Positions 15,883-46,465 of a stretch of 64,000 nucleotides of DNA are shown one piece after another. Source of the DNA: an uncultured Actinomycetes bacterium (GTDB taxonomy: Bacteria; Actinomycetota; UBA4738; HRBIN12); assembly GCA_963713185.1 (NCBI GenBank), contig CAVQKV010000007.1, positions 18,537-82,536 of the forward strand, in the 5' to 3' direction. A model generated the notes under the pieces. That model made no database searches. It had not been told where the DNA came from and worked only from the letters and a program-made list of their open reading frames with translations. Within the stretch, counting starts at the first letter, position 1, and each line of letters opens with the position of its first letter. The position numbers and the translations under genes are program-made.

Positions 15883-18207
15883 CTAGTCGAGCAGGGCGTC
15901 GAACTCCCTCTGGGTGTCGCTCAATCGCTCCGAGAGGATCCTCGCGAGCCACCGATGCAGCGCCGCGGCCAGCTCGGGCTCCTCGGCCTCCATCCGCTCG
16001 ATCGCCGCGCCGCTGAGCCGCAGGACCACGCTCGGCGTCTCGGCCACCACGTCCGCCGTTCGCGTCACGCCCGTGTACATCGCGACCTCGCCGACGACCA
16101 CGCCGGGGTTCACCCTCCGCACGCGCATCTGGGTCCCGTCGGTCGTCACCATCTCCACGCTCAGTCGGCCCGATTCCACGACGAACAGATCGCCCGGCGG
16201 TTCGTCCTGTCGGATCAGCACCGTGCCCTCGGCCAACGGCATGCGCTCGAGGTAGCCGCGCACGCCGGGCGGCAGGTCGGCGAGCACGCCGCTCGACCCG
16301 TCCGAGGACGCCACCCGGTCGGCACCGATCTCGACCGCACGGCCGCCGACCCCGCCTTCGACCCCATCCCCGACGGGGCCGACCTGGAGCAGACGTTCCT
16401 CGCACCACTGCAAGCCCCGATCCAGGTCCGGCTCGAACCGCAGGACCGCGGACGCGCCCGCCCCCCCACGCTCGAGCTGCCTGCGCACCGGGTCCGAGAC
16501 CCCGGTGAACACGAGCTCGAACCCGTTCGCCTCCGCCAGGTGCGTGACCTTGAGGAAGGACACCACCGCCGAGGAGTCCACCCCGGTCACCCGTCGCAGG
16601 TCGATCACCAGGAACCTCGGCGGTGCCGCCTCCACGCGCTTTCGGATCCGCTCGAGCAGGCCGTTGGCCGACCCGAAGAACACGAACCCGTTCAGGCGCA
16701 GGATCTGGACGCGGTCGCCCATGGCCCGTAGCGCCGCTCGCTCGGTGGGCGGACGGTCCACGTTGCTGTGGTAGGTCTCCCCGAAGGAGACCTCGCGCAC
16801 CAGCTCGATCCGGCCGTAGCTGACCGCGAACAGGACGACCGCGAGCACGAGCCCGAGCACGACCCCGGGCAGGAACCCCCGGGCGATGATCGCCGCCAGG
16901 ATCACCAGGACGACCCCGTACTCCACCGGCGGCAGGGTCCGCCGCTTGTCCCAGACCCACTCGACCAGGAAGGCGAGGCCGAGGAACACGAGCACGCCGC
17001 CCACGATCATGCGCGGGATCAGCTCGATGACGGCGGCGCCGAACACGACCGCGGCGAGCGGGACCGCCGCGGCGATGAGCCCCGCGGCCCGCGCGTTCAC
17101 CTTCATGCGCTCGGCGAGCGCGCTCAAGCTGAGCGCGTGGTAGCCGGGGATGCCGCCGAGCGCGCCGGAGATCACGTTCAGCACCCCGGCGTCGCGCAGC
17201 TCCTCGTTCGTTTCCAGGTCCCGGTGCAAGATGATCTCGGTCCCGCTGATGTTGAACAAGATCGCAAGCACGGCCACGAACACGGCGGTGGCGATCCCCG
17301 CCCACTGGCCGAGCACCGCCGACCAGTCGGCGCCGGTGAGGGCTCGAAGGGTCCACGGCTGCCACGACTGGCGGTCGTCGAACGGACCGAACAGCAGCCA
17401 GTTGCCCGACCTCGCACCCTCGAGCGACGAGCCCGTCACGAGCATGCCGATCGCGAACGCCACGATCCCGATCCCGATCACGACCGGGATCACGAGTGGG
17501 TTCTTCACCACCCGCGTCGCGACGAGCAGGATCACGCCGAACGCTACCGCGGGAAGCCACAACTGCAGCACCCTCGACTCCGTCAGGTCGCCGATCGTGG
17601 CCAGCGATGCCGCCTCGCGCGAGGCGACGGCGATGCCGCCCTTCAGCAGCAGCCACCCCGTCCCCGCGACGAACCCCCCGACGACCGGGTAGGGGACGAA
17701 CCTGATCAGGTTGGCGCGCTTGAGCGTCCCGAGCACCAGGAACACGACGCCGCACAGGACGGTCACGACGAGCGTCGCGGCGACGACCGTGAGGAAGGCT
17801 CGCTCGGGGCCCCCGAACGCGTCGAGGGCCGTGGTCGTCGCCACGATCGCGAGCACGGCGGCCACCGTCCCCTGCAGGCTGCCGACGACCCCGCGGAGAC
17901 CCGCCCGCCACGCGAGGATCGCGAGCGTCAGCGCTGCCGCTCCGAGGTAGAGGGTGATCGCATCCGGGAGGGAATCCTCGAGATAGCCCCCGAACACGAA
18001 GGCGGCGAACGCGACCGCGAAGACCGTCTCGATGGCACCGATGACCACGCCGGCCGCGAGCACGGCGAGCATCCCCTCGGGTCGTCGCTGTCCGACCACG
18101 GTCCCTCCCCCTGAAAGCGGACTGTAGGCGCAAGCGCGGTCGAGCGCATGCGGTCGAGGGCCTGACCCACCCGAACGCCCAGACGCAGGGAGCCCCTCCG
18201 TCGCCAT
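15883..18207 (-). CDS. SulP-family anion transporter with STAS and C-terminal cyclic nucleotide-binding domain (copy B)
   Basis: 774-aa ORF collinear with copy A and carrying a 20-aa longer STAS-CNB linker. The true start may be an internal codon near MLAVLAAG. Confidence 0.9.
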   Translation of the reverse strand: MATEGLPASGRSGGSGPRPHALDRACAYSPLSGGGTVVGQRRPEGMLAVLAAGVVIGAIETVFAVAFAAFVFGGYLEDSLPDAITLYLGAAALTLAILAWRAGLRGVVGSLQGTVAAVLAIVATTTALDAFGGPERAFLTVVAATLVVTVLCGVVFLVLGTLKRANLIRFVPYPVVGGFVAGTGWLLLKGGIAVASREAASLATIGDLTESRVLQLWLPAVAFGVILLVATRVVKNPLVIPVVIGIGIVAFAIGMLVTGSSLEGARSGNWLLFGPFDDRQSWQPWTLRALTGADWSAVLGQWAGIATAVFVAVLAILFNISGTEIILHRDLETNEELRDAGVLNVISGALGGIPGYHALSLSALAERMKVNARAAGLIAAAVPLAAVVFGAAVIELIPRMIVGGVLVFLGLAFLVEWVWDKRRTLPPVEYGVVLVILAAIIARGFLPGVVLGLVLAVVLFAVSYGRIELVREVSFGETYHSNVDRPPTERAALRAMGDRVQILRLNGFVFFGSANGLLERIRKRVEAAPPRFLVIDLRRVTGVDSSAVVSFLKVTHLAEANGFELVFTGVSDPVRRQLERGGAGASAVLRFEPDLDRGLQWCEERLLQVGPVGDGVEGGVGGRAVEIGADRVASSDGSSGVLADLPPGVRGYLERMPLAEGTVLIRQDEPPGDLFVVESGRLSVEMVTTDGTQMRVRRVNPGVVVGEVAMYTGVTRTADVVAETPSVVLRLSGAAIERMEAEEPELAAALHRWLARILSERLSDTQREFDALLD
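16415..17365. repeat. partner copy of the 951-bp tract at 14106..15056
   Basis: Same evidence as the partner tract. Identity starts at ccccgatccaggtcc and ends at ggctgccac in both copies. Confidence 0.9.
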
Positions 18208-18270
18208 CGGCCTGATGACGCTCGAGACCTGCCTCCGTCGCCTGCCGGGAGGATCCCGAGGTCGCCGGGG

Positions 18271-19350: not shown

Positions 19351-20949
19351 CTACTCGATGTAGCCGAGACCGCGGAGGTGCTCCTCCATCTCGTCGGCCT
19401 CGGTGTCGCTGACCGCCGTGGCCTCGTCGCCGCTCGGCATGCCGGGGATCTGCACCGCCGGCTCGGCCTCGGCCTGCGCGACCTTCGCGTCCGAACCCAC
19501 GACCTCGTGCAGCACCCGGCCGGTGTGCTCGATCGAGGCGGGCGCGTCGAGCGCCGCCAGGATCGTCGGCGCCATGTCGATCAGCAGCGGCGGCTGCTCG
19601 AACGGCTTCACGGACGGCCCGGCCGCCACGATCACGCCCTCGATGCCGGTGGTCGCCGCTGATCCAGTCGGCGTCCTCGATCGCGGACTTCGCGTGGGTG
19701 AGCGAGTACCGCTCGGCCGGCTCCATCAGGATGTCGGGCGCGGTGTCGGCGTGCTTGCCCTTGAAGATCTCCTCGCGCCGGTAGATCGCCTTCACGGGCT
19801 TGCGGCCGGTCTTCGGGTCGACGAAGCTCGACGAGCGCGTCCATCACCTGGTCGCGCACCTTCTCGAAGTCGGCCGGGTCGACGATGCCGTCGGGCTCGC
19901 GCCCGGCCAGGTTGATCGAGACGCCCTCACCGGTCGAGCGGATCGTCGTGAACGCCTTGGTCTTGGACCAGTTCACCGACTGCGGCAGCGAGACCTTCCC
20001 GTGCAGGCCGAGCATGTCGTAGACCTTGCGCGCGACCTTGCGCACCGGCCCCCACTGCATCGGCCCGAAGACCACGTTCGACGCGCTGAACTCGAGGAAG
20101 CCGAACTCTTCAGCAGGTGGTCCATGTGGATCGTGCGCGTGACCGACTGGAACCCGTGGTCGCGAGATGAACAGGACCAGGTCGTCGGGCTCGCGTGCGC
20201 GAGACGAACGAGCCGATCGCGTCGTCGAGCTGCGCGTAGATGTCTGCGCACCTTCCCGCCGATCGCGGTCTCGTGGTTCTTCGCGTAGTCGGGGTGGTCG
20301 GGCGCGACGTAGTTCGACAGCGCGTGCTGCGTGCGGTCGACCGAGACCCAGACCGAGGCCATCAGGTCCCAGTCGGAGTTGTCCATCAGCCACTCGGTCG
20401 CGCGGATCCGCTTGCCGGTGACCTCGAGCGCCTCGTCCAGGTACTGCGTCGGGCCGGTTGCGGTAGGTCGTCCAGGACATGCCGTTGATCGCCCACGGCA
20501 CGCCGGCCTTCTCGAGCTGCTCGGCCAGGTCGGCGGGCTGCGTGTACGGTGCGCCCCTTCGGCAGCACGCCGCCGGCGAGCGATCTTCCCGTTGATCTCC
20601 GGCGGCGGGAACATGCAGCGGCACGTCGGCGTAGCACCCCGACCTTGCCGGCCGCCGAGAGGTCCTCGACGAACGTCCGCTCCTTGATCGACTTGTAGGT
20701 GACCGGGTACTGCTTGTGGGTGCCCGGCACGGTCTCGAGGATGTCGTAGACCCCGTGATCGGCCGGGTCGACCCCCGTCAGGAACGACGGCCACGCCGCC
20801 CACGAGTGGGTCGGCACCGTCGAGCGCAGGACGCCCTTCTGCCCCCGGTCGATCAGGGCCTGCAGGTTCGGCAGGGCGCCCCGCTCGAGCAGGGGTTCGA
20901 GGATGCGCCAGTCGGCGCCATCCCATCCGATGAGCAGCACTCGTGGCAT
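19351..20949 (-). pseudogene. nucleotide pyrophosphatase/phosphodiesterase (alkaline phosphatase superfamily) gene with ~11 frame breaks
   Basis: The N-terminus MPRVLLIGWDGADW...STVPTHSWAAWPSFLTG (metal-site Thr) is family-typical. Conserved segments then hop among all three frames (ORFs 20386..20949, 19973..20965, 19632..20624, 19289..19795, 19351..19635), down to ...RGLGYIE. Confidence 0.75.
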
Positions 20950-21212
20950 TAGGCGTCAGCTCCATTCAGCGGTTGCTTAGAGTCTACAAATCGGGTGCTC
21001 GCGTCTTGCACGTGGTTTATGGGTACTTCGGCACAACACTTTATCCTCGGCTCAGATCAAGCCAGACATCAAGAACACGCTCCGACAAGCAAGCCTCAAC
21101 TGGCAGATCGCTCGACCAACTATTCATTCCGCCGGGGACTAGAGACAACCCTTGGACGGGTCATTTTCTCTCAGGGATGGGAGGCGATGCGCTCCTGCTC
21201 AGCCGTGGAGCG

Positions 21213-24200
21213 TCAATCCGACACCGGGCGCCACGTCGGCTCGGTGACGTACGCGCCGATCGTGAACACCTCGCTCGCGTCGGCGCGCATCAGCAGGGCC
21301 AATGTTCCTGATGAGTCTGAGGCCGAAGCGCCAGCCATCACGATCCACCGTCCGTCCGGCGACCAGTCGAGGACGAGTTGGCCAATAGAGGGACTCCTGG
21401 GGAAGTCCTCCATGAACTCGCGGACGTCGGAGCCGTCGGGGCGCATCGACAGAATGGTTCTTCCCCCGCCGAGCTTGTGCCCCCAGAAGAGGATCCGTTC
21501 CCCATCTGGCGTCCACGAGAGGGGGAACCCGAAGTGGCCGGCTGGCTCCTCACCCACCTTGGTCACGTCACTGCCGCCCGCGCCCATCACATAGAGGTTG
21601 AAATGATCCCCATTGATGCCGGTGAACGCGATCCGGCGACCGTCCGGAGACCACGCTGGCCACCCAAAACCCTCGCTCTCACTCGTCACCAGCTCCGTCC
21701 ATCCGCTGCCGTCGGCGTCCATGACGACGATGCTGCTTCGGACCGAGTCTGGTAAGTCCGGTTCCTCGAGGGCGAGCGCGACATGGCTCCCGTCCGGCGA
21801 CCATGCGGGATCGATCACGTCACCCACCACATCGGTGAGTCGCACGAGCCCGGTACCGTCGGCATGCAAGGCGTACAGATCGGACCCGTCCGGACCGTGG
21901 CCGGTGAAGACGATTCTGGTTCCGTCGGGGGACCAGCCCGGAGATGCGCTACTGCGACTCTCGTCGGTCAGTTGCTCTACGTCGAAGCCGGCGGCGTCCA
22001 TGAGAGCGATCTGCCCCTCGGTCGCGAAGGCGATCACCCCCGAGGGCGCCGGGGTCCACGCGAGCCGCTCGGAGACCTCGTTCGGTCCTGCGCACGTACC
22101 GCCGCTCTTGAACTCCCAATTCAGGGACTTTGCGGACCCCGAGACTCGGTACGACGCGGGTCCGCCCGTGAGCCCGGTCCCAACGCAGTCGCCGGTCAGG
22201 GGATCGAACACGACGAGGTCTGGCTTCGCGAGCAGGACGTTGCCGGATTCGATGACGGCGGCGTCCCGAGCTAACTCGTACGTCCCGTCCTCGATATGCA
22301 TCCGATACGTGACCAAGGGCCGGCCGTTCGCATCACGCAGGTTCACCCCCGTTACGCGATCCGGCTCAGCAGCAGATACGAGGTAGGACCCATCGCGCAA
22401 GAGTGGAACCGTGGCAGCCGCCGGCCGATCCTTGGCGGTGACCGTCGCGTCCTCCGCCGAAGCAACCGGTCCCGAGGACGACAGCCACCACTCGTACAGC
22501 GTGAGATCTGCCTGGTCGTTCCTGATGGCGTGCGCGTAGATGGCCGAGTTCTCGTCCGTCCACTGGATGTGCGACGTCTCCGTGTCGCCGATCACCTGCG
22601 TGTAACAGAGGACACGGCCGGCCGGCTCGCCGCCGATCGAGTAGGGCGTCACCGCGAGGTGGTCGGTCGCGCACTCACCGTCGGGTGCCCGGTTGACGTT
22701 CGCACGGATCTGGAAGGCCTCGTCCATCTCGTCCCTGCTGGAGAACAGCTCGTAGAGAACCTCGACCTCGTCCTCCGTGCAGACCAGCGCCGAAAGTGGG
22801 CCATCGGCCGAGACCGCCCGGTCGAGTGGGAGGCAAGCCGCGCCGAGGTTCTCGGGGATGTAGCCGAGGAGCCGTTCGTCGTCCGAGGTGAGCGCCCGCT
22901 CGACCGTCTGGAAATGCGGTGCTGGGGACGGGCTGAGGGGGTCCTCACCCCTTTGGCCGGTTGGCGTCCCGTCCCGCGACACGGAGAACACGATCACCCC
23001 GGTCACGAGGGCCGCCGCCAAAGCACCGGCTACGGCACGCCACCTCAACGACCCCGACGACGCTCGCCCTGCCGAACCGGCGGGCGGACCCAGCGCATCA
23101 CGAGCAGCGGTCGTGAACCTCCCGCAGCTGACGTATCGGCCGTCAGGCGACTTCGAGAGCGCCGTTGCGACGACCTCATCGATCGCGGCCGGGAGGTCGG
23201 GACGCGAGGCTGTCAGCCGGGGCGGCTTCTCGCCGAGGTGCGCGTAGAGCGCGGCCACCTGCGTCTCTCGTTCGTAGGGAACCTTGCCGGTGAGGCACTC
23301 GAACAGCACGCACGCGAGCGCGTAGACATCGGCGCGAGCATCGACACGCTTGCCCTCGATCTGCTCCGGAGCGACATAGTCAACCGTTCCGACGAACTGC
23401 CCGGTCCGGGTGAGGCCACCGGTCCCGCCTTCAAGGCGTTTGGTGAGACCGAAGTCCGATAGGTAAACGAGGTCGCGGCCCTCTGAGCCCTCCTCGGGGA
23501 CGACCAGGATGTTCCCCGGCTTCACGTCGCGGTGGACGAGCCCGCGGGCATGGGCAGCGTCGAGCGCCGAAGCCGTCTCCCGTACGATCCACAGTGCCCG
23601 CTCCGGGTCGAGCGTCCCCTCGCGCCGGATCAGTGTGCCAAGGTCGGTCCCCGGCACGTATCGCATCGCGATGAAGAGAGAGTCTTCGGCCTCGCCCGCT
23701 TCGTAGATCGGCACGATGTTCGGATGCTCCATCCCTGCCGCGATGCGCGACTCGCGGACGAAGCGCTCTCGGAACCGGTCGTCGTCGGCGAGCTGCGGCG
23801 CTAGGAGCTTGAGCGCGACCTTGCGTCCGAGGGCGAGGTGCTCGGCGAGGTAGACGACGCTCATGCCGCCCCGGCCGAGCACCGCTTCGATCCGATACCC
23901 GGCGAACGAGGTCCCAAGCGCTAGATCTCCCCTCGAGGGACGCCCCGAAGGTGGCGGTGCCGATGTCTCGTCACCCAGCAGATCGGGGTCCCGCCTCAGG
24001 ATCCGCTGGTTCAGGTCCAGGAGCTCGGCCGACGGATCGGCTCCGAGCTCGTCCTGCAGCACCTGTCGAGCCCGCTGAAACGCGTCGAGCGCCTCGGCCT
24101 GTCGGCCGGACCGATACATCGCGAGCATCAGGTGAGCCCATAGCCGCTCCCGCAACGGATATCGCGAGGTCAGCGCTTCGAGCTCGGACACCATGGTCGA

Positions 24201-24710
24201 ATGCCGCCCCATCTCGAGCTCGGCCGCGATCCGATGCTCGGTCGCCCCGAGTCGGAGCTCTTCCATCCGTGCGATGGATCCGCGAAGCGAGGGTTCGTCG
24301 GCGAGGTCGGCGAACGCCGGTCCGCGCCACAGATCCAGAGCCTCCGCAAGGGTCGCCGCCGCGCCCGAAGGATCGGACCCCGACGATGCCTTGCCCCGCC
24401 TCACGAGCGACTCGAAACGCGAAGCATCGATCTCCTCGGGCGCAACGGAGAGCACGTATCCGCCCCCGCGCCCCTCGATCCTCCCGTCGCCGAGCACCTT
24501 GCGCAGCCGGGATACGTACGACTGCAGCGTGTTCCGTGCCGAATCGGGTGGGTCCTGGCCCCAGAGATCATCGATCAGCCGTTCGGCCGGCACGATCCGG
24601 TTGGCCTGAAGGATCAGGTGCGCCAAGACGGCGCGCTGCTTCGGCCCGCCGATCGGAAGCGGACGGCCATCATCTAGGACCTCCATGGGCCCGAGCACCC
24701 GGAACTCCAC
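21213..24710 (-). CDS. SARP (OmpR-type wHTH + BTAD) - Ser/Thr protein kinase - TM - Cys-containing extracellular domain - PD40/TolB-like beta-propeller fusion protein
   Basis: GTG 24710 gives VEFRVLGPMEV (SARP N-terminus). BTAD ~23985-24420. Kinase ~23106-23906 (GRGGMSVV, VALK, HRDVKPGN, DFG, APE). TM 22980-23045. At least five WSPDG/WTPDG blades at 21216-22043. Confidence 0.85.
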   Translation of the reverse strand: MEFRVLGPMEVLDDGRPLPIGGPKQRAVLAHLILQANRIVPAERLIDDLWGQDPPDSARNTLQSYVSRLRKVLGDGRIEGRGGGYVLSVAPEEIDASRFESLVRRGKASSGSDPSGAAATLAEALDLWRGPAFADLADEPSLRGSIARMEELRLGATEHRIAAELEMGRHSTMVSELEALTSRYPLRERLWAHLMLAMYRSGRQAEALDAFQRARQVLQDELGADPSAELLDLNQRILRRDPDLLGDETSAPPPSGRPSRGDLALGTSFAGYRIEAVLGRGGMSVVYLAEHLALGRKVALKLLAPQLADDDRFRERFVRESRIAAGMEHPNIVPIYEAGEAEDSLFIAMRYVPGTDLGTLIRREGTLDPERALWIVRETASALDAAHARGLVHRDVKPGNILVVPEEGSEGRDLVYLSDFGLTKRLEGGTGGLTRTGQFVGTVDYVAPEQIEGKRVDARADVYALACVLFECLTGKVPYERETQVAALYAHLGEKPPRLTASRPDLPAAIDEVVATALSKSPDGRYVSCGRFTTAARDALGPPAGSAGRASSGSLRWRAVAGALAAALVTGVIVFSVSRDGTPTGQRGEDPLSPSPAPHFQTVERALTSDDERLLGYIPENLGAACLPLDRAVSADGPLSALVCTEDEVEVLYELFSSRDEMDEAFQIRANVNRAPDGECATDHLAVTPYSIGGEPAGRVLCYTQVIGDTETSHIQWTDENSAIYAHAIRNDQADLTLYEWWLSSSGPVASAEDATVTAKDRPAAATVPLLRDGSYLVSAAEPDRVTGVNLRDANGRPLVTYRMHIEDGTYELARDAAVIESGNVLLAKPDLVVFDPLTGDCVGTGLTGGPASYRVSGSAKSLNWEFKSGGTCAGPNEVSERLAWTPAPSGVIAFATEGQIALMDAAGFDVEQLTDESRSSASPGWSPDGTRIVFTGHGPDGSDLYALHADGTGLVRLTDVVGDVIDPAWSPDGSHVALALEEPDLPDSVRSSIVVMDADGSGWTELVTSESEGFGWPAWSPDGRRIAFTGINGDHFNLYVMGAGGSDVTKVGEEPAGHFGFPLSWTPDGERILFWGHKLGGGRTILSMRPDGSDVREFMEDFPRSPSIGQLVLDWSPDGRWIVMAGASASDSSGTLALLMRADASEVFTIGAYVTEPTWRPVSD

Positions 24711-24956
24711 GCCGCGACCGTACGCCGACGCCGTGGAGAGCGAAAGCGACCCTATCCCGCTGAGGGACTCGTTCCATGCTTTCGGGAGGCCATCACGATG
24801 TCCTTCGTCACACCAGGCGATCGATCTGATCGGCAGACGAGGGGTCGCCCCCTGTTGTAGTGGGCCCGCGCGAGCCACCACCACCTCCGCATCTCGAACG
24901 CTCGAGCGGCTCGACCGCTGAGCGCGCCGTTCGAGAGGACGTGGCACCATGCCGCC
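24711..24956. promoter_or_regulatory. divergent intergenic region between the SARP-kinase gene and the HisKA_3 kinase gene
   Basis: 246 bp between two divergent start codons. Promoters are inferred from position only, and no motif was identified. Confidence 0.3.
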
Positions 24957-27101
24957 ATGTCAAGCTCGAACGAAGATCGCGCCGCGGCCGCGAGCTCGCC
25001 TCGCCTGCGGCTGCTCGCCCGCGTCATCTTCGGTCTGACGATCCTGGGTATCGCGTCCGGCGTCTGGTTCTCGTTCCTCGATGCCGGGAAGTTCGAACTC
25101 GACCTCGCCTTTCTGCTCAGCTTCTGCCTGTTCCCGATCATCGGCTACATCTTGGCGATCCGCCGGCCGGACAACGCGATCAGCTGGTTGATGCTGGGGA
25201 TCGGCGCTGCCTTCGGCCTGAGCGCGTTGGAGGGGTCCTACGCGAGCTACGCGATCCACGGCGGCGTCGGCGGGTATCGCCTGGGGGCGATCGCCCTCGC
25301 GTTCGACCAGCCGATGTGGTTGCCGATCGTCGGTCTGCCGGCGACGTTCCTGATCCTGCTCTTCCCCGATGGGCACCTGCCGTCGCCACGCTGGCGGTGG
25401 TTCGCCTGGGTCCTGGGCGCCAGCATGGTGATCGTCTTCCTGGCGATCCTGTTCAGCCCGGGGCGGTTCGAGGACAGCGCGTTCCCGAACGTGGTGAACC
25501 CGCTCAGCTCGGAGGCTGTGCGGTCGGTAGTGGCGGTCGCCACCGTCTCGCTCGTCATCCTCCCGATCGGCGTGATCGGCTCGCTGGTGAGCCTCGTGCA
25601 GCGGTTCCGCCGGTCCACGGGGATCGAGCGGCTGCAGCTGCGGTGGCTCGTGACCGCCGCAGGTACGGTCGCCATCCTCTACGCCTCCGCCCTCGTCCTC
25701 TCGTTCAACGCAACCTGGGGGACCGACGCCACGCCCGGCTGGTTGGGGGTCCTCCAGGCACTCGCCATCGTGTCCTTCGGCCTGATCCCGATCGCGATCG
25801 GGATCTCCGTGCTCCGGTACCACCTCTTCGACATCGACCTCGTGATCAACCGGGCGCTGCTGCTCGCAGCAATGGTGGTCTTCATCACCCTCGTGTACAT
25901 GGGGATCGTCGTCGGCGTCGGGGCACTCGTCGGGAGTCAGGCGAACGCCGTCCTGTCCGCGGTGGCCGCCGCGGTCGTCGCGCTGGCGTTCCAACCTGCG
26001 CGGAGACGTGCTCAGCGGTTCGCCGACCGCCTCGTCTACGGGAAGCGAGCGACGCCCTACGAAGTGCTCTCGCAGTTCTCCGATCGGCTCGGCAACGCGT
26101 ACGCGAACGAGGAGCTGCTGCCGAGGATGGCCCGGGCGCTGGCCGAGGGCACCGGTGCGTCCCGCGCCGACGTGTGGGTCCGCGTCGGCGACGAGCTCCG
26201 AGGGGAGGCCGTGTGGCCGCAGGACGCCGATCGGCCCGACCCCCTCGTCGCCTCAGCGAACACCGAAGGGAGCCTCTCCTCGTCGTCGATGCGCGAGCCC
26301 GTCCGCCACTTGGATGAGCTCCTCGGAGCGCTGTCGATAACGAAGAAGCCGGGAGAGTCGATCACCGCGACCGAGGAGAAGCTCGTCCGCGATCTGGCCT
26401 CCCAGGCGGGTCTGGTGATGCGCAACGTCGCGCTCGCGGAGCAACTGATGGACACCATCGAGGAGCTCCGCGCGTCGCGCCAGCGCTTGGTGACCGCGCA
26501 GGACGAGCGCGCCAAGCAGCTCGAGCGGAACCTGCACGACGGCGCGCAGCAGCAGATCGTCGCGCTCACGGTGAAGCTGCGACTGCTCGGCCAGCTGATG
26601 GATCGTGACGTGGAGAAGGCCAAGTCGATGGCGTCGGATCTCCAGGCCGATGCGACGGACGCGTTGGAGCAGCTCCGAGACCTGGCTCGCGGCATCTACC
26701 CGCCGTTGCTGGCGGACCAGGGCCTCGTCGCGGCACTCGAGGCACAGGCGCGCAAGGCAACCGTCCCGACGGAGGTTCGATCCGACGGGATCGGCCGCTA
26801 CCCGCAGGACATCGAGGCCGCCGTCTACTTCTGCGTCCTCGAGGCCCTGAACAACGTGGCCAAGTACGCCGAGGCGACGAGGGCAGAGGTGAGCCTGGCG
26901 CAGATCGATGGCCATCTCCGTTTCGCCGTCGTCGACGACGGGACGGGTTTCGACACGGCTGAGACGAGTTACGGAACGGGGGTCCAGGGGATGGCCGACC
27001 GCTTGGACGCGATCGGCGGTGCCCTCGAGGTGGTCTCCCGCAAAGGCGAAGGCACGACCATCGAAGGCCAGATCCCGACGCCCGCGAACCCCGACGCCTG
27101 A
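24957..27101 (+). CDS. multi-TM sensor histidine kinase, HisKA_3 (NarL/LuxR-partner) type, no adjacent response regulator
   Basis: About 8-10 N-terminal TM helices and a GAF-like middle region. H-box ERNLHDGAQQ, N-box EALNNVAKYA and G-boxes DDGTGF / GVQGMADR. Confidence 0.9.
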   Translation: MSSSNEDRAAAASSPRLRLLARVIFGLTILGIASGVWFSFLDAGKFELDLAFLLSFCLFPIIGYILAIRRPDNAISWLMLGIGAAFGLSALEGSYASYAIHGGVGGYRLGAIALAFDQPMWLPIVGLPATFLILLFPDGHLPSPRWRWFAWVLGASMVIVFLAILFSPGRFEDSAFPNVVNPLSSEAVRSVVAVATVSLVILPIGVIGSLVSLVQRFRRSTGIERLQLRWLVTAAGTVAILYASALVLSFNATWGTDATPGWLGVLQALAIVSFGLIPIAIGISVLRYHLFDIDLVINRALLLAAMVVFITLVYMGIVVGVGALVGSQANAVLSAVAAAVVALAFQPARRRAQRFADRLVYGKRATPYEVLSQFSDRLGNAYANEELLPRMARALAEGTGASRADVWVRVGDELRGEAVWPQDADRPDPLVASANTEGSLSSSSMREPVRHLDELLGALSITKKPGESITATEEKLVRDLASQAGLVMRNVALAEQLMDTIEELRASRQRLVTAQDERAKQLERNLHDGAQQQIVALTVKLRLLGQLMDRDVEKAKSMASDLQADATDALEQLRDLARGIYPPLLADQGLVAALEAQARKATVPTEVRSDGIGRYPQDIEAAVYFCVLEALNNVAKYAEATRAEVSLAQIDGHLRFAVVDDGTGFDTAETSYGTGVQGMADRLDAIGGALEVVSRKGEGTTIEGQIPTPANPDA

Positions 27102-38269: not shown

Positions 38270-38317
38270 GCAACCGGCGCTTCCACCCGAGGCCCGGTCC
38301 GTGGGACCATCGACCGC

Positions 38318-40282
38318 ATGGGAGGCACCGAGACGCCGGCAGCGACCCTCGACGAGGCCAGGGCGGCCTGCGACCGGCGGGCGTGGGAACGTGCGCACGA
38401 GCTCTTCGCGGCCGTGGCCGCCGAGCGCCCGCTCGAGGCAGAGGATCTCGAGCGGTTCGCGAAGGCCGCCTACTGGATCGGAGCCGCGAGCGGGGCGATC
38501 TCGGTCCGGGAGGCGGCGTACGAGGCCTTCCTCGCGCGCGGCGACAACGTGCAAGCCGCGTCCTGCGCGCTCACCCTGCAACGCCAGCACGCCTCGATGC
38601 TCCAGGACTCGATCGCGGCGGCGTGGTTGAAGCGGGCCGAGTGGCTGCTGGTCAGCGCCGAGGAGTCCACGGCCCACGGATACCTGGCCATCGCCCATGC
38701 CGATGCGGCGCGGGCACGTGGGGACGTCGCCGAGGCGACGAACCTGGCCGTGCGAGCCGTGGAGATCGCGAGCCGGTTCGACGACCGCGACCTTCCGACG
38801 TGGGCCCTCATGCGGCGGGGCATGTTCCTCGTGGACGCGGGCCGGGTGGACGAGGGGTGGCCGCTGATGGAGGAGGTCGCCTCGGCCGCGGCCGGCGGCG
38901 AGCTCGGCACGTTCACCACGGGGGCCGTCCTGACCAACGTCGTGAACATGTGCCGCGACCTCGGCGACTTCCGTCGCGGCAGCGAATGGTCCGACGCCGC
39001 GATCCGCTGGTCCGAACGGCAGCAGATCACGGGCTTCCCGGGGATCTGTCGGGTCAACGGGGCGGCGATCCTGCGCATGCTCGGCAGGCTGCGGGAGGCG
39101 GAGGAGGAGGCGCGCGCTGCCTGGCAGGAGCTGATGGAGTTCAGCCCGGCCCACGCCGCGGCGGCGCAGCACGAGCTGGGCGAGGTGCAGCTCCGGCTCG
39201 GAGACCTGACCGCGGCCGACGAGGCCTTCCGACAGGCGCGCGACCTGGGAGAGGATCCACAGCCGGGGCTCGCGCTGCTCCGACTCGCGCAGGGCGATCT
39301 CGATGTGGCTGCGTCTTCGATCCGCCGGAGCCTGCAGGTGGCCGCGTTCGACCGCTTCGCCCGTGCCCGGATGCTGCCGGCGCAGGCCGAGATCGCCGGT
39401 GCGGCGGGCGACGCGCAGACGGCCCGGGCCGCCCGGGACGAGCTGGCGGAGATCGCTCAGCAGGTCGCCTCTCCGGCCATCCGCGCGGCGAACGAGTGGA
39501 CGGCCGGCCTGACCGCGCTCCTCGAGGACGAGCCCGAACGCGCTTCGGGTCACCTCGGCGAAGCCCGGAAGCGATGGGACGAGGTCGGAGCCCCGTACGA
39601 GTCGGCGAAGGTGTCGCTCGCGCTCGCCGACGCGCAGCTCGCCGCCGGCCACGAGGAGGCCGCCGCGACCGAGCTCGATGCGGCGCGGACCGCGTTCGAA
39701 CGGCTGGGGGCGCACCTCGACGCGAGGCGAGCGGCGGAGCTGCTCGCGCGGACCCGGAGCGGCGGCGCGTCGTCCCGCACGGTTCGAACGTTCCTGTTCA
39801 CGGACATCGTCGGCTCGACCGCGCTGATCGAGGTGATCGGGGACGAGGCCTGGAACGACCTCCGCCGTTGGCACAACGAGACGCTCCGCTCGACGTTCGC
39901 CGATCACGGCGGCGAGGAGATCGATCACGCGGGCGACGGCTTCTTCGTCGCCTTCCCCGATCCCGCGCGTGCCGTCGCCTGCGCGGCGGAGATCCAGCGA
40001 CGGCTCGCCGAGCATCGACGGATCCACGGGTTCGCACCCCAGGTGCGGATGGGTCTCCACGCCACGACGGCGACACGGGACGAGACCGGCTACACGGGCC
40101 TCGGCGTGCACACGGCGTCCCGGATCGGCTCGCTCGCGGGGGCGGGTGAGATCCTCGCGAGCGCCGAGACCCTGGCCGCCGTCCCCGACGCGCGGGGTTC
40201 GGAGCGGCGGAGCGTCTCATTGAAAGGGATCGTCGAGCCCGTCGAGGTGGTCTCGATCGACTGGCCCTCGGCGAAGGACTGA
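38318..40282 (+). CDS. TPR-like sensor domain protein with C-terminal class III cyclase domain
   Basis: A ~480-aa helical-repeat N-terminus paralogous to the LuxR regulator at 43374..45003. C-terminal cyclase domain (FLFTDIVGST...HAGDGFFVAF...GVHTASRI). Confidence 0.85.
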   Translation: MGGTETPAATLDEARAACDRRAWERAHELFAAVAAERPLEAEDLERFAKAAYWIGAASGAISVREAAYEAFLARGDNVQAASCALTLQRQHASMLQDSIAAAWLKRAEWLLVSAEESTAHGYLAIAHADAARARGDVAEATNLAVRAVEIASRFDDRDLPTWALMRRGMFLVDAGRVDEGWPLMEEVASAAAGGELGTFTTGAVLTNVVNMCRDLGDFRRGSEWSDAAIRWSERQQITGFPGICRVNGAAILRMLGRLREAEEEARAAWQELMEFSPAHAAAAQHELGEVQLRLGDLTAADEAFRQARDLGEDPQPGLALLRLAQGDLDVAASSIRRSLQVAAFDRFARARMLPAQAEIAGAAGDAQTARAARDELAEIAQQVASPAIRAANEWTAGLTALLEDEPERASGHLGEARKRWDEVGAPYESAKVSLALADAQLAAGHEEAAATELDAARTAFERLGAHLDARRAAELLARTRSGGASSRTVRTFLFTDIVGSTALIEVIGDEAWNDLRRWHNETLRSTFADHGGEEIDHAGDGFFVAFPDPARAVACAAEIQRRLAEHRRIHGFAPQVRMGLHATTATRDETGYTGLGVHTASRIGSLAGAGEILASAETLAAVPDARGSERRSVSLKGIVEPVEVVSIDWPSAKD

Positions 40283-40388
40283 CCCGCGACCACCACGCAA
40301 CTCCGAGCCCCGTTGACCCGAGCGTGGTGCCCGGCGCAGAATCGATGTTTCCGCAGGTCACCTACCGAACGAGCGGAAGGGCGGGAAC

Positions 40389-42023
40389 GTGGCGCAGGAG
40401 GGTCCCGACGGCGTGACGGAACGCACGAGCGGAGCGGCCGACGGTCGGCGGCCGGACCGCCGGGTGCGCGACCCGGAGCGGCTTCCGCCGTTCGTGAGGC
40501 CCGCGGCCGACTTCATCGCCAAGATCCGCGCGACCGTGCACACGAAGCTCCTCGCCGGCTTCCTCGTGATCGCCGTGCTCCTCGTCGCGATGGGGGTCAC
40601 GAGCATCCTCGTCATCCGGGAGATGAACCAGGAGGCGCATCAGCTCATCACGTTGCAGGAGCAGACCGACGTCGCCCGGCAGGCGATCTACTCCGTCACC
40701 TCGCAGAGCCATTTCCGGGCGATGGCGCTGATCACGGAGGAGGACGTCTGGAACGACAAGATCGTCACGGCGAAGGAGGCGTTCGTCGACGAACTGGACA
40801 CGTTGGCCGCGATGGGCGGACCGGACGTTGACGAGGCGGTCGACGGGATGCGAGCGATCGACGAGCGCTACGCTGCCGCCGGCGCCGAGGTCCTGGCCCT
40901 GTACACGGCGGGCGACATCGGAGGCGCGCTCGACCTGCACATCACCGCCGAGCACACGATCTCCCACGAGCTCGAGGACGAGCTCAATCAGCTGATCGAC
41001 TCCACGGAGGAGCGGATCGCCGTGGCGTCAGGCGATCTGTCGTCGCTGCACCGCTTCCTGCTGATCGCCGTCGGGATCTTCTCGGGCGTGAGCCTGCTGA
41101 TCGCGCTGGGTCTCGGCGCGGCCCTGTCCTGGTCGGTCATCCGTCCGGTCCGCAAGATGGACCTCGCGCTGGCCCGGATCGCCGACGGCGATTTCGGACA
41201 GCAGATCGACGTCCCCAACCGGGACGAGTTCGGCCGGCTGACGACGAACCTCAACCGGACCAGCGGACAGCTCGCGACGCTCTACCACGACCTCGAGGAG
41301 CTGAACCAGAACCTCGAGAAGACCGTGGAGGAACAGCTCGGCCAGCTCCGACGGGCGGAACAGCTCCGCCGCTACCTCGCACCGCAGGTCGCCGACGCCG
41401 TGCTCAATAGCGGGGCGCCGGTATCGCTCAGCTCGACGCGCCGGAACCTGAGCATCCTGGTGGCCAACATCCGCGGGTTCACCTCCATGTCCGAGGGCAT
41501 GGAGCCCGAGGAGGTGATCGACGGGCTCAACCAGCACTTCGCGGTCATGACCGACGTCGTCTTCCGCCACGGCGGAACGCTCGACAAGTACATCGGCGAC
41601 GGGATCCTCGCCTTCTTCGGAGATCCCATCCCGTTCGAAGATCACGCCGAACGGGCCGTCGTGACGGCGCTCGAGATGCGGCAGCGCCTCCGCGGCCTCC
41701 GCACGAGGTGGTCGCTCGAGCGCGAGGGTGGACTGAACGTGGGGATCGGGGTCAGCACCGGATACGTGACGGTCGGCAACATCGGTTCGGACACGCGGAC
41801 CGAGTACACGGTGATCGGTAACCACGTCAAGCTGGCGTCGTACCTGGCGCAGACCGCCGCACCGGATCAGATCCTGGTGTCGGAGCGCACGCTGACCGAC
41901 TCCGCGATCCGGGAGCGCGTCGATGCCACCGCCCTGGATCCGCTCGACGTGGAGGGCTTCCGCCATCCGGTCAAGGTCTTCGAGGTCGACGACGTGCCCG
42001 CGCCGCTCCGTCGGCGACTCTGA
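40389..42023 (+). CDS. membrane receptor with helical sensor, HAMP and a degenerate class III cyclase homology domain
   Basis: Two TM segments flank a ~190-aa extracytoplasmic helical domain. HAMP (VIRPVRKMDLALARIADGDF). The cyclase domain reads VANIRGFT, KYIGDG and GNHVKLASYL. Confidence 0.85.
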   Translation: MAQEGPDGVTERTSGAADGRRPDRRVRDPERLPPFVRPAADFIAKIRATVHTKLLAGFLVIAVLLVAMGVTSILVIREMNQEAHQLITLQEQTDVARQAIYSVTSQSHFRAMALITEEDVWNDKIVTAKEAFVDELDTLAAMGGPDVDEAVDGMRAIDERYAAAGAEVLALYTAGDIGGALDLHITAEHTISHELEDELNQLIDSTEERIAVASGDLSSLHRFLLIAVGIFSGVSLLIALGLGAALSWSVIRPVRKMDLALARIADGDFGQQIDVPNRDEFGRLTTNLNRTSGQLATLYHDLEELNQNLEKTVEEQLGQLRRAEQLRRYLAPQVADAVLNSGAPVSLSSTRRNLSILVANIRGFTSMSEGMEPEEVIDGLNQHFAVMTDVVFRHGGTLDKYIGDGILAFFGDPIPFEDHAERAVVTALEMRQRLRGLRTRWSLEREGGLNVGIGVSTGYVTVGNIGSDTRTEYTVIGNHVKLASYLAQTAAPDQILVSERTLTDSAIRERVDATALDPLDVEGFRHPVKVFEVDDVPAPLRRRL

Positions 42024-42135
42024 CCGAGATACCTGTGGCGGAGGCGGAGGGTCTCGCGGAGCGGCAGCTCGAGCGCCATCGACCCCGGTGAGAGGCAGGG
42101 TGAGGGTCGGGGGCTGCGGCGCGGCCGGGCGACCT

Positions 42136-43251: not shown

Positions 43252-43373
43252 GCCCGCCCCCTTGATCGCGTGGTTCCGCGACCGTAAGGGGAGCGGGGCA
43301 ACGGGTTCATCGCACGAACGAGCCAACCTCCGGCGGCGCCCTCGTGGTGAGGAATCACCACGAGCCGTGCCGC

Positions 43374-45003: not shown

Positions 45004-45078
45004 GCCGCCTCCTCCGTGTCGAACGCCGTGCCGGAAGCCGGGAACAGCCTAGCCCCAACGATCGATCACGCGGAGGGC

Positions 45079-46287: not shown

Positions 46288-46465
46288 GGATCGAATGTAG
46301 CCCGCCCTGCGGCCGAAGGGGCGTACGTCGCAACCGCTTCCGAACGCCTCGCGAGCGGGCGCCCTCCGGGGCGGTTGCCGATGCCCACGGGGTCGTGGAA
46401 CACTCCCTCGCCGCCCGGGGCGGGCCTGGTGCCCTCGCGGGTGTCGGGCGCGTCAGGAGGAGCGG

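What the first reader, a model, noticed from the sequence alone, without database searches (positions are those of the whole stretch)
21213..24710. Single polypeptide fusing a SARP DNA-binding regulator to a receptor Ser/Thr kinase with extracellular PD40 propeller
Seen, in order: an OmpR-type winged helix (VEFRVLGPMEVLDDGRPL...YVSRLRKVL) and a BTAD domain. Next comes a complete Hanks kinase with all catalytic motifs, then one TM helix (WRAVAGALAAALVTGVIVFSV). Then follow a ~310-aa Cys-containing extracellular domain and at least five WSPDG-type PD40 blades. Established: SARP/EmbR-type regulators are normally separate proteins controlled by partner kinases, as with PknH and EmbR in mycobacteria. 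Inference: this is a Rosetta-stone fusion of such a pair. It would be a membrane-tethered transcription factor whose DNA-binding domain sits next to its own kinase and an external sensor. That raises the question of how it reaches DNA, whether ToxR-like at the membrane or by proteolytic release. It sits divergently from an orphan HisKA_3 kinase.
Basis: partly seen in the sequence, partly recalled or inferred. Interest (0 to 1): 0.7.

Follow-up and report, generated by a model that had tools for sequence, protein, structure and literature searches.

The report
Receptor kinase fused to SARP regulator
One intact 1,165-residue gene joins a DNA-binding antibiotic-regulator-type transcription activator (SARP), a working-looking Ser/Thr kinase, a membrane anchor and an outside sensor, and it belongs to a large, conserved but unstudied family from uncultured Actinomycetota that links kinase signalling directly to a transcription factor.

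Summary
Window 21213-24710 (- strand) is one uninterrupted gene encoding, in order:
- an OmpR-type winged helix plus BTAD (a complete SARP module)
- a Hanks kinase with every catalytic residue
- one transmembrane helix
- two disulfide-bearing extracellular domains with no confident structural relative
- a PD40 beta-propeller

It is not an assembly artefact. More than 100 protein clusters share the full architecture at 45-92% identity, and all modules are under purifying selection.

The fusion is also not rare. The N-terminal SARP-kinase cassette occurs in at least 42 clusters at 50% identity, with varied C-terminal parts: PD40, solute-binding domains, STAND-WD40, or none. In relatives where the kinase is unfused, separate SARP genes often lie beside it. 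This supports the Rosetta-stone reading.

No paper I could search describes the architecture, and databases call it only 'BTAD domain-containing putative transcriptional regulator'.

The most likely working is a single-chain receptor. An outside ligand activates the kinase, which controls the attached SARP, which then activates promoters while still tethered to the membrane, as ToxR does. That mechanism is inferred, not shown. The target promoters and the ligand are unknown.

Verdict: a new variant of known kinds, of moderate to good interest.

The parts
21213..24710 (-). Whole coding sequence, 1,165 aa plus stop; start GTG at 24710
   Evidence: ORF list and translation. The start is fixed by the homologue consensus MEF... 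and by ATG at the same position in L001. There are 105 full-length homologues.
24441..24710 (-). OmpR-type winged-helix DNA-binding domain of the SARP module (aa 1-90)
   Evidence: Pfam Trans_reg_C, aa 23-86. It aligns without gaps to the AfsR DNA-binding domain. AfsR DNA-contact residues W74, P79, T88, R92, R94 and K95 (PMC10936776) correspond to W50, P55, S/T64, R68, R70 and K71, which are conserved in 106 sequences.
23997..24431 (-). BTAD, the bacterial transcriptional activation domain (aa 94-238)
   Evidence: Pfam BTAD, E 1.8e-46, over the full profile 1-146. It is aligned with the wHTH to AfsR (8HVR, E 2e-50) and EmbR (2FEZ, E 1.6e-47). dN/dS is 0.20.
23898..23978 (-). Pro/Ser/Gly-rich flexible linker between SARP and kinase (aa 245-271)
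   Evidence: Low conservation, variable length among relatives, dN/dS 0.67.
23106..23897 (-). Hanks-type Ser/Thr kinase domain (aa 272-535)
   Evidence: Pfam Pkinase, E 2e-46. Partial NCBIfam matches to the PknB and PknD kinase domains. All catalytic residues are invariant in 106 sequences, and the activation loop carries T434/T436.
22980..23042 (-). Single transmembrane helix (aa 557-577), preceded by basic residues R556 and R558
   Evidence: Hydropathy scan: one segment with mean 2.2 or more at this position in 106 of 106 homologues.
22461..22913 (-). Extracellular domain 1 (aa ~600-750): alpha/beta sandwich with four invariant Cys
   Evidence: AlphaFold2 pLDDT 92.4. Invariant C626, C644, C680 and C702. 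Only weak fold matches, to PsbP, TiME, Mtc28, LpqN and EagT6 (TM 0.30-0.40). No Pfam hit and no PDB sequence match.
22065..22403 (-). Extracellular domain 2 (aa ~770-882): all-beta barrel-like domain with two invariant Cys
   Evidence: AlphaFold2 two-domain model, pLDDT 89.8. Invariant C842 and C873. Weak matches to lipocalin-like C-terminal domains of SurE/D-aminopeptidase and to fHbp/TbpB barrels.
21216..22055 (-). PD40 (TolB-type) beta-propeller (aa 886-1165), five canonical W-S/T-P-D-G blades plus N- and C-terminal strands
   Evidence: Pfam PD40, five stretches, E 1e-23. NCBIfam TolB propeller, aa 899-1160, E 9e-28.
24711..24789 (-). Conserved 5' leader; the last ~45 nt before the start are nearly identical in the closest relative
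   Evidence: blastn and alignment with L001. Homology stops 79 nt upstream. No sigma-70-like promoter and no direct repeats were found there.

Best explanation
This is a single-chain transmembrane signalling protein of an uncultured actinobacterium.

**Layout.** The N-terminal 555 residues are cytoplasmic. They hold a complete SARP transcription-activator module (winged helix + BTAD), joined by a ~27-residue flexible linker to an active Hanks Ser/Thr kinase. One helix crosses the membrane. Outside lie two disulfide-stabilised domains and a TolB-like PD40 propeller, which together form the sensor.

**Proposed working (inferred).**
1. Binding of an unknown extracellular ligand, probably a peptide, protein or envelope fragment given the propeller type, promotes receptor dimerisation.
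2. The kinase trans-autophosphorylates on activation-loop T434/T436, as in PknB-class kinases.
3. Two SARP modules are thereby brought side by side and/or released from inhibition by the adjacent kinase, through phosphorylation or through a conformational change.
4. They bind direct repeats overlapping the -35 element of target promoters and recruit RNA polymerase, as the AfsR SARP does.
5. The protein stays in the membrane throughout, as ToxR and CadC do.

**Shown:** the gene, domain order, intact catalytic and DNA-contact residues, topology, conservation, and the existence of split and adjacent versions.

**Inferred:** the ligand, the direction of regulation, the phospho-targets, the DNA sites, and activity while tethered.
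For: - **Architecture and intact motifs:**
- **The SARP module is complete.** It aligns end to end with the AfsR SARP (E 2e-50) and EmbR (E 1.6e-47). It keeps the residues that contact DNA in the AfsR-RNA polymerase cryo-EM structure (PMC10936776; counts).
- **Selection.** dN/dS is 0.27 for the wHTH, 0.20 for BTAD and 0.22 for the kinase, so the DNA-binding part is kept as strictly as the kinase. Across 105 homologues the SARP and kinase are the most conserved parts, at 68-69% identity against 37-57% for the ectodomains.
- **Topology.** One hydrophobic helix sits at the same place in 106 of 106 sequences. Six invariant Cys occur only on the C-terminal side.
- **Functional coupling of SARP and kinase.** At least 42 of the best 150 clusters at 50% identity carry the colinear SARP-kinase cassette, with four different C-terminal arrangements. 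Separate SARP genes lie beside the closest unfused kinases in 14 of 80 loci.
- **Membrane-tethered SARPs exist without a kinase:** L030, SARP-TM-DUF6923-Peripla_BP_6.
- **Precedent.** In AfsR the C-terminal domains auto-inhibit the SARP, and the SARP acts as a side-by-side dimer. This gives a precedent both for control by an adjacent domain and for control by dimerisation.
Against: - No target is known. I found no SARP-type direct repeats at 11- or 22-nt spacing upstream of this gene or of three homologues, and no promoter-like site.
- Gene neighbourhoods are not conserved, so context says nothing about the regulon.
- No conserved Ser/Thr phospho-acceptor was identified in the SARP or in the linker. 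EmbR T209 corresponds to Ala192 here, and the linker is variable.
- For AfsR itself, phosphorylation by AfsK barely changes activation in vitro. Phospho-control of a SARP is therefore not a settled precedent.
- The topology rests on a hydropathy scan and Cys placement, not on a dedicated predictor or an experiment.
- No PAE or model of the cytoplasmic part was obtained.
Confidence: 0.5

Rival explanations
1. The parts are the same, but the switch is dimerisation and not phosphorylation of the SARP. Ligand-driven pairing of receptors places two SARP modules side by side on the direct repeats. The kinase mainly phosphorylates itself and other cellular substrates.
For: The AfsR SARP is monomeric in solution and dimerises side by side on DNA, and phosphorylation has little effect on AfsR activation (PMC10936776). 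No conserved phospho-acceptor was found in the SARP or linker. A SARP-TM-sensor protein without any kinase exists (L030).
Against: If pairing were enough, there would be little reason to keep the kinase between the SARP and the membrane in more than 100 clusters with every catalytic residue invariant. The cassette also occurs in soluble forms with no membrane receptor (P0144, P0121).
Confidence: 0.2
2. The membrane form is a latent precursor. After a signal, proteolysis in the juxtamembrane region, the linker or the membrane helix releases a soluble SARP or SARP-kinase fragment, which then acts on the chromosome.
For: Two poorly conserved flexible segments flank the kinase (aa 245-271 and 536-556) and could be cleaved. 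Regulated proteolysis of membrane-bound regulators is well established (my knowledge: RsiW/RseA, and ToxR/TcpP degradation). Soluble SARP-kinase proteins of 530-730 aa exist as separate genes, so the cassette can work without a membrane anchor.
Against: No protease gene is conserved beside the gene. No conserved cleavage motif was seen in the linkers. Membrane-tethered winged-helix regulators such as ToxR and CadC work without release (my knowledge).
Confidence: 0.15
3. The SARP module is an input and not an output. DNA binding localises or activates the kinase, as reported for the DNA-activated membrane kinase YabT of Bacillus subtilis. The kinase then phosphorylates nucleoid-associated or transcription proteins.
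For: YabT is a transmembrane Hanks kinase whose DNA-binding motif is needed for activation (abstract of PMC3708118, listed). The DNA-contact residues here are very uniform across paralogues with differing ectodomains.
Against: The module includes a complete BTAD, and the residues that contact RNA polymerase in AfsR (D71, R59 and E76, equivalent to D47, R35 and E52 here) are conserved. That points to transcription activation and not mere DNA docking. A large extracellular sensor already provides an input.
Confidence: 0.1
4. The fusion is an artefact: a sequencing or assembly frameshift, or a decaying pseudogene that joins two neighbouring genes.
For: Raw reads could not be inspected. Window GC3 of the gene (0.80) is somewhat below that of its neighbours.
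Against: There are 105 independent full-length homologues from NCBI, ENA, JGI and Logan assemblies. A 94%-identical copy in another assembly has the same uninterrupted frame. dN/dS is well below 1 in the SARP, kinase and PD40 modules. The same protein was gene-called on a 384-kb contig in public data.
Confidence: 0.02

Closest known systems
PknH / EmbR of Mycobacterium tuberculosis (receptor Ser/Thr kinase and its SARP-family substrate)
   Same: A Hanks kinase with one membrane helix and an extracellular, disulfide-bearing sensor, coupled to a SARP (winged helix + BTAD) regulator. The SARP part here matches EmbR over its whole length (E 1.6e-47).
   Different: PknH and EmbR are two proteins that dock through EmbR's FHA domain. 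Here there is one chain and no FHA. The sensor is not PknH-like: there is no PknH_C Pfam hit and PknH is absent from the fold matches. The reported EmbR phosphosite T209 is Ala here.
AfsK / AfsR of Streptomyces coelicolor
   Same: The SARP module is the closest solved relative (8HVR/8K60, E 2e-50). Its DNA- and RNA-polymerase-contact residues are retained. In AfsR the C-terminal domains auto-inhibit the SARP, and the kinase could do the same here. AfsK also carries a C-terminal beta-propeller (PQQ repeats).
   Different: AfsR is a soluble SARP-NOD-TPR protein phosphorylated in trans by a separate kinase. Here the kinase replaces NOD-TPR and the protein is membrane-anchored. NCBIfam scores for AfsR (226 vs cut-off 1430) and AfsK (104 vs 1300) are far below the family thresholds.
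ToxR / CadC / TcpP class of membrane-bound one-component winged-helix regulators
   Same: An N-terminal cytoplasmic OmpR-type winged helix, a single membrane helix and an extracytoplasmic sensor in one polypeptide. This is the precedent for activating promoters while tethered (my knowledge).
   Different: Those proteins have no BTAD and no kinase, and they are proteobacterial. Here ~470 residues (BTAD, linker, kinase, juxtamembrane) lie between the DNA-binding domain and the membrane.
PknD of M. tuberculosis and other receptor kinases with extracellular beta-propellers
   Same: Kinase, one membrane helix, extracellular six-bladed-type propeller. The kinase domain matches the PknD model (E 2e-40).
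   Different: PknD has an NHL propeller and no DNA-binding module. Here the propeller is PD40/TolB-type, preceded by two extra domains.
Classified SARP size classes: small, medium, large, SARP-LAL (review PMC10972967)
   Same: The N-terminal SARP module is followed by a regulatory C-terminal extension.
   Different: None of the described classes contains a protein kinase or a membrane helix.

Membership tests
SARP family (Streptomyces antibiotic regulatory proteins) | N-terminal OmpR-type winged-helix DNA-binding domain | tested here: met
   Pfam Trans_reg_C, 45 bits against a cut-off of 26.2. Gap-free alignment to the AfsR and EmbR DNA-binding domains.
SARP family (Streptomyces antibiotic regulatory proteins) | BTAD directly following the winged helix | tested here: met
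   Pfam BTAD, 158.5 bits against a cut-off of 22.1, over profile positions 1-146 of 146.
SARP family (Streptomyces antibiotic regulatory proteins) | Conserved DNA-contact residues of the recognition helix and wing (AfsR W74, P79, T88, R92, R94, K95) | tested here: met
   W50 in 106/106, P55 in 106/106, T/S64 in 99/106, R68 in 102/106, R70 in 106/106, K/R71 in 83/106. AfsR Q48 is K/R here and AfsR R87 is an invariant Q (residues taken from PMC10936776).
SARP family (Streptomyces antibiotic regulatory proteins) | Binds direct heptamer/11-nt repeats overlapping the -35 element and activates transcription | not testable with these tools
   No such repeats were found upstream of this gene or of three homologues. 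The regulon is unknown.
Hanks-type (eukaryote-like) Ser/Thr protein kinases | Complete catalytic core: G-loop, VAIK Lys, alphaC Glu, HRD, Asn, DFG, APE | tested here: met
   Pfam Pkinase, 159 bits against a cut-off of 31.7. G279-x-G281-G282, K301, E320, H393-R-D395, N400, D419-F-G421 and A447-P-E449 are invariant or nearly invariant in 37-106 sequences.
Hanks-type (eukaryote-like) Ser/Thr protein kinases | Activation-loop Thr pair for autophosphorylation (PknB T171/T173 type) | tested here: met
   T434 in 106/106 and T436 (T101, S5), in the motif T-x-T-G-Q-F-V-G-T. The correspondence to PknB is from my own knowledge and was not aligned here.
Single-pass receptor kinase topology (N-in, C-out) | Exactly one membrane helix between the kinase and the C-terminal domains | tested here: met
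   One hydrophobic segment (Kyte-Doolittle mean 2.2-3.0 over 19 residues) at the equivalent position in 106/106. The seven extra segments in other sequences are weak, at 1.64-1.71. No dedicated predictor was available.
Single-pass receptor kinase topology (N-in, C-out) | Extracytoplasmic hallmarks on the C-terminal side | tested here: met
   Six invariant Cys lie in aa 626-873. PD40/TolB-type propellers are typically periplasmic (my knowledge). Disulfide formation itself was not tested.
PD40 / TolB-like beta-propeller | Repeated PD40 blades forming a propeller | tested here: met
   Five PD40 stretches, 83 bits against a cut-off of 20.9. The TolB propeller model matches aa 899-1160 (E 9e-28), well below the equivalog cut-off (97 vs 343 bits), so this is not TolB itself.
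PknH-like extracellular sensor domain (Pfam PknH_C) | Sequence or fold match to the PknH sensor domain | tested here: not met
   No Pfam hit even at E<=10. A profile search of PDB sequences found nothing. The Foldseek top 50 lack PknH; the best matches are PsbP, TiME, Mtc28 and LpqN at TM 0.30-0.40.
ToxR-like membrane-bound one-component regulators | Cytoplasmic winged helix, one membrane helix, external sensor in one chain | tested here: met
   Domain order and hydropathy.
ToxR-like membrane-bound one-component regulators | Activates transcription while membrane-bound | not testable with these tools
   Requires localisation and ChIP or reporter experiments.
AfsR (NCBIfam NF053617) / AfsK (NF053615) equivalogs | Whole-protein score above the curated cut-off | tested here: not met
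   225.8 bits against a cut-off of 1430 for AfsR, and 103.8 against 1300 for AfsK. Only the SARP or the kinase part matches.

The most novel reading that the evidence does not exclude
SARP-kinase is a widespread, modular 'one-polypeptide pathway' of uncultured Actinomycetota. A eukaryote-like receptor kinase is covalently joined to its own transcription factor, so that sensing, phospho-signalling and promoter activation happen in one membrane-tethered chain. Evolution has plugged the same cassette onto several sensor types: PD40 propellers, solute-binding domains and STAND-WD40. This would be a third design of bacterial transmembrane gene control, beside two-component systems and ToxR-type regulators. 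It would also be a natural experiment showing how Hanks kinases govern SARPs.
Probability: 0.4. Interest if true: 0.75.

Novelty: new variant of a known kind. Interest (0 to 1): 0.55.

Why it matters
**An unsettled question becomes testable.** How Ser/Thr kinases control SARP regulators (AfsK-AfsR, PknH-EmbR) is still unsettled after three decades. The 2024 AfsR structure paper reports that phosphorylation barely changes activation in vitro. A family in which kinase and SARP are one chain gives strong evolutionary evidence that the two act together. It also gives a simple system, with one protein, fixed stoichiometry and no docking domain, in which to test whether phosphorylation, dimerisation or relief of auto-inhibition is the switch.

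**It widens two known categories.** It extends the ToxR/CadC idea of membrane-tethered winged-helix activators to Gram-positive Actinomycetota and to SARPs. It adds a class to the SARP classification, which at present has none with a kinase or a membrane anchor.

**A practical use.** SARPs are widely over-expressed to awaken silent biosynthetic clusters. A ligand-gated SARP could serve as a sensor-actuator part.

Tried and rejected
1. **Target sites.** I looked for SARP-box direct repeats and promoter-like sites in the 246-bp divergent intergenic region and upstream of three homologues. I found none at 11- or 22-nt spacing, only short inverted repeats containing TCGAG. The run of TCGAG motifs I noticed by eye is palindromic and not direct.

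2. **Conserved neighbourhood.** There is none for the window copy. Homologues at 55-70% identity sit between uvrB and uvrA, often as tandem pairs. The 94%-identical copy shares only the gene itself. I therefore reject the divergent HisKA_3 kinase as a functional partner.

3. **PknH-like sensor.** Rejected.

4. **GTDB genome scan.** It cannot be used to say which species carry the family. It was useful only for the SARP-adjacency observation.

5. **Reverse-order fusions (kinase then SARP).** Two-stretch hits suggested these, but the two I checked are tandem SARP-SARP (P0173) and kinase-kinase (P0131) proteins. I dropped the claim.

6. **Conserved phospho-acceptor.** EmbR T209 is Ala here. The 'RPSR' motif before the kinase is confined to a subfamily.

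7. **Mid-domain search.** A protein search with the mid domain alone returned only fragments of this same family, so there was no independent functional clue.

8. **Source contig.** The exact look-up of the window's own gene call (P0265) in the contig index failed. The source organism is known only as an Actinomycetota MAG. One fragment at 82% identity is labelled Aeromicrobium sp..

9. **Cultured replicons.** tblastn against 72,556 plasmid or large-replicon records found no colinear SARP-kinase.

10. **Literature.** Seven literature searches found no description. The library lacks most subscription journals, so this is not proof of absence.

Full report

Yes. On the - strand an ORF runs without a stop from 24950 to the stop codon at 21213-21215. 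The consensus of more than 100 homologues begins M-E-F at this point. The closest relative has ATG exactly where the window has GTG, and nucleotide similarity fades 79 nt further upstream.

Pfam gives:
- Trans_reg_C, aa 23-86
- BTAD, aa 94-238, full profile
- Pkinase, aa 272-~530
- five PD40 repeats in aa 886-1165

NCBIfam matches only parts, to the kinase domains of PknB and PknD, the SARP part of AfsR and the TolB propeller. All score far below the family cut-offs.

**2. Is the gene intact and functional-looking?**

A protein search returned 120 listed hits. Of these, 105 are full length (1,140-1,220 aa) with the same domain list at 45-92% identity, from NCBI, ENA, JGI and Logan assemblies. 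NCBI names them only 'BTAD domain-containing putative transcriptional regulator [Actinomycetota bacterium]'. The window's own protein is in public data as a 1,221-aa gene call on a 383,915-bp contig.

In an alignment of 106 sequences:
- The SARP and kinase parts are the most conserved, at 68-69% identity to the query. The ectodomains are at 37-57%.
- Every catalytic residue of the kinase is invariant or nearly so, and the activation loop carries T434-x-T436.
- All 106 have one strongly hydrophobic segment at the same place, although its sequence varies. That is the usual signature of a membrane helix.
- Six Cys, all C-terminal to that helix, are invariant.

Against the 94%-identical copy (L001), dN/dS is 0.27 for the wHTH, 0.20 for BTAD, 0.22 for the kinase and 0.18 for PD40, but 0.6-0.7 in the two linkers. 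The DNA-binding part is therefore maintained as strictly as the kinase. An assembly artefact or a pseudogene is excluded for practical purposes.

**3. The SARP module**

It aligns over its whole length with the AfsR SARP (PDB 8HVR/8K60, E 2e-50) and with EmbR (2FEZ, E 1.6e-47). The AfsR-RNA polymerase cryo-EM paper (PMC10936776) lists the DNA contacts and states which are conserved among SARPs.

| AfsR residue | Role | Residue here | Conservation in the family |
|---|---|---|---|
| W74 | DNA contact | W50 | 106/106 |
| P79 | DNA contact | P55 | 106/106 |
| T88 | DNA contact | T/S64 | 99/106 |
| R92 | DNA contact | R68 | 102/106 |
| R94 | DNA contact | R70 | 106/106 |
| K95 | DNA contact | K/R71 | 83/106 |
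| D71 | RNA-polymerase contact | D47 | conserved |
| E76 | RNA-polymerase contact | E/D52 | conserved |
| R59 | RNA-polymerase contact | R35 | conserved |

This looks like a working activator and not a relic. The reported EmbR phosphosite T209 corresponds to Ala192.

**4. The ectodomain**

Residues 578-885 have no Pfam match even at E<=10. AlphaFold2 with a 105-sequence alignment gives a confident model (pLDDT 89.8) of two domains:
- an alpha/beta sandwich, aa ~600-750, with four Cys
- an all-beta barrel-like domain, aa ~770-880, with two Cys

Foldseek against the PDB finds nothing convincing:
- For the two-domain model, the best matches are the lipocalin-like C-terminal domains of SurE and D-aminopeptidase, and PsbP.
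- For the first domain alone (pLDDT 92.4), the best matches are PsbP, TiME, Mtc28, LpqN and EagT6/SciW, at TM 0.30-0.40 and E about 1e-2.

To my knowledge these all share the Mog1/PsbP-type sandwich, and several are secreted mycobacterial envelope proteins, but the match is too weak for membership. The PknH sensor is not among the hits, and a sequence profile finds no PDB relative. A protein search with this region alone recovers only fragments of the same family. The ligand is unknown.

**5. How common is the fusion, and is it a Rosetta stone?**

An exhaustive HMMER search used aa 1-545 against 1.84 billion cluster representatives. At least 42 of the best 150 align colinearly from residue 1 through the kinase. 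Their lengths run from 530 to 2,056 aa. Sampled members are:
- SARP-kinase only, soluble (P0144, P0121)
- SARP-kinase-TM-DUF6923-SBP_bac_5 (P0125, P0128)
- SARP-kinase-nSTAND1-WD40, ~1,700 aa (P0150, P0204)

The linker alignment separates two clades:
- one with a 25-40-residue Pro/Ala-rich linker and G-loop GRGGMS, which holds this family and the other receptor forms
- one with almost no linker and G-loop GEGAFG, which holds the STAND-WD40 forms

The cassette is therefore modular, and either old or assembled more than once.

The scan of GTDB species genomes was seeded on kinase motifs and truncated, so it says nothing about which species carry the family. It did deliver the closest unfused kinases, and 14 of those 80 loci have a separate SARP gene (45-53% identical to this one) within 6 kb. 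Examples:
- a 527-aa SARP with a USP-like C-terminal half lies directly upstream of, and co-directional with, a receptor kinase (L069, L037)
- 541-aa SARPs lie convergent to kinase-nSTAND1-WD40 genes (L021, L030) and to a kinase-DUF6923-Peripla_BP_6 receptor gene (L044)
- in L030 there is a SARP-TM-DUF6923-Peripla_BP_6 protein, that is, a membrane-tethered SARP with no kinase

Conversely, P0013 is 78% identical over kinase-to-propeller but starts at the kinase, with only 187 nt to the next gene. Fused, adjacent and SARP-less states thus all exist among close relatives. This is the pattern expected when two partners that work together have been joined. I have no proper background rate for SARP density in these genomes, so I call the adjacency enrichment suggestive and not proven.

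**6. Context**

The window copy lies divergent to a HisKA_3/HATPase_c kinase (24957-27101). No response regulator is adjacent, and the remaining neighbours are unrelated or of unknown function.

Homologues at 55-70% identity sit between uvrB and uvrA, next to aminotransferase and chromate-transporter genes. Twice they occur as tandem pairs.

The 94%-identical copy shares only window 21204-24789, and both flanks are unrelated. Synonymous divergence between these two copies is mosaic: 0.23-0.25 in the SARP against 0.02-0.05 in the barrel domain and propeller. That points to recombination between paralogues.

Context therefore gives no clue to the regulon and does not support a link to the histidine kinase. 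I found no SARP-type direct repeats and no sigma-70-like promoter upstream.

**7. How it most likely works**

Shown:
- a cytoplasmic SARP that looks competent
- a flexible linker
- a kinase that looks active
- one membrane helix
- an external sensor stabilised by disulfides

Inferred:
1. Ligand binding outside promotes pairing and activation-loop autophosphorylation.
2. This converts the attached SARP into an active, side-by-side DNA-bound dimer, either by phosphorylation or by relief of inhibition by the neighbouring kinase. In AfsR the C-terminal domains inhibit the SARP and the SARP dimerises only on DNA.
3. The protein acts from the membrane like ToxR or CadC.

The two linkers plus the kinase give the SARP a reach that I estimate at well over 100 Angstrom. 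Tethered action is therefore sterically reasonable (my estimate, not computed).

Rivals are a phosphorylation-independent dimerisation switch, proteolytic release, and a YabT-like model in which DNA activates the kinase. I rate the main model at about 0.5.

**8. Comparison with what is known, and novelty**

The closest systems are:
- PknH/EmbR and AfsK/AfsR, which have the same two partners but as separate proteins that use FHA docking or phosphorylation in trans
- ToxR-type regulators, which have the same topology but no BTAD and no kinase
- PknD-type propeller receptor kinases, which have no DNA-binding part

The current SARP classification (small, medium, large, SARP-LAL) has no kinase-bearing or membrane-bound class. 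Surveys of kinase architectures that I could read mention BTAD only as a substrate domain. Seven full-text searches found no description. No colinear SARP-kinase occurs in 72,556 plasmid or large-replicon records of cultured bacteria.

I file it as a new variant of known kinds: real, abundant in environmental Actinomycetota, and uncharacterised.

**9. Verdict**

Interest is 0.55. A signalling specialist would find a kinase welded to its transcription factor notable and experimentally useful. But every part is a known domain, and the mechanism, ligand and targets remain to be shown.

Noticed in passing
window 21204-24789 vs L001 4601-8182: Similarity to the closest relative (94% nt) covers only the gene plus 79 nt upstream and 9 nt downstream; both flanks are unrelated. 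Synonymous divergence is mosaic along the gene (dS 0.25 in the SARP, 0.02-0.05 in the barrel domain and propeller), and the gene's GC3 (0.80) is below that of its neighbours (0.85-0.92). This suggests relocation and recombination or gene conversion between paralogues.
   Followed up: partly
window 24957-27101 (+): A 714-aa membrane histidine kinase (HisKA_3 + HATPase_c) lies divergent to the finding, with no response regulator gene next to it. The pairing is not conserved in any homologous locus examined.
   Followed up: partly
window 24892-24936: A perfect 9-nt inverted repeat, TCTCGAACG / CGTTCGAGA, separated by 27 nt, plus further TCGAG-containing palindromes, lies in the divergent intergenic region. 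Function unknown. They are not the direct repeats expected for a SARP.
   Followed up: no
window 15883-18270, 38270-47538, 50650-54528: The window is dense in signalling genes: SulP-STAS transporter with a cNMP-binding domain; MalT-like TPR protein; HAMP-adenylate/guanylate cyclase; TPR-LuxR regulator; response regulator-cyclase; and a 1,292-aa hybrid kinase with three GAF, PAS, HisKA, HATPase, two receiver and an Hpt domain.
   Followed up: no
L030 2589-5765 (-): A 1,058-aa protein with SARP, one membrane helix (aa 317-335), DUF6923 repeats and a Peripla_BP_6 domain. It is a membrane-tethered SARP without any kinase, divergent from a kinase-nSTAND1-WD40 gene. It appears to be another undescribed SARP class.
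   Followed up: partly
L021 5893-10470, L030 5893-10485; P0150, P0204: Very large proteins combining a Hanks kinase, an nSTAND1 NTPase, a hydrophobic segment and WD40 propellers, either with an N-terminal SARP fused (~1,700-2,050 aa) or with SARP genes alongside. It is an AfsR-like STAND regulator with a kinase inserted.
   Followed up: partly
L069 3622-5205, L021 10480-12105, L044 4422-6047, L039 9140-10936: SARPs of 527-598 aa whose C-terminal half resembles universal stress protein domains (only a weak Usp Pfam hit in L039). They are repeatedly encoded next to receptor Ser/Thr kinases in Thermoleophilia-type MAGs.
   Followed up: partly
L002 6823-13942; L084 4455-11495: Tandem pairs of full-length family members lie in a conserved block between uvrB and uvrA (with Oxidored_molyb, Aminotran_5/KYNU_C and chromate-transporter genes). 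This indicates local duplication of the receptor.
   Followed up: partly
window 19973-20965 (-) and 19351-19725 (-): ORFs of 330 and 124 aa downstream of the finding have no Pfam match. The 20-22 kb region has the lowest GC of the window (0.656).
   Followed up: no
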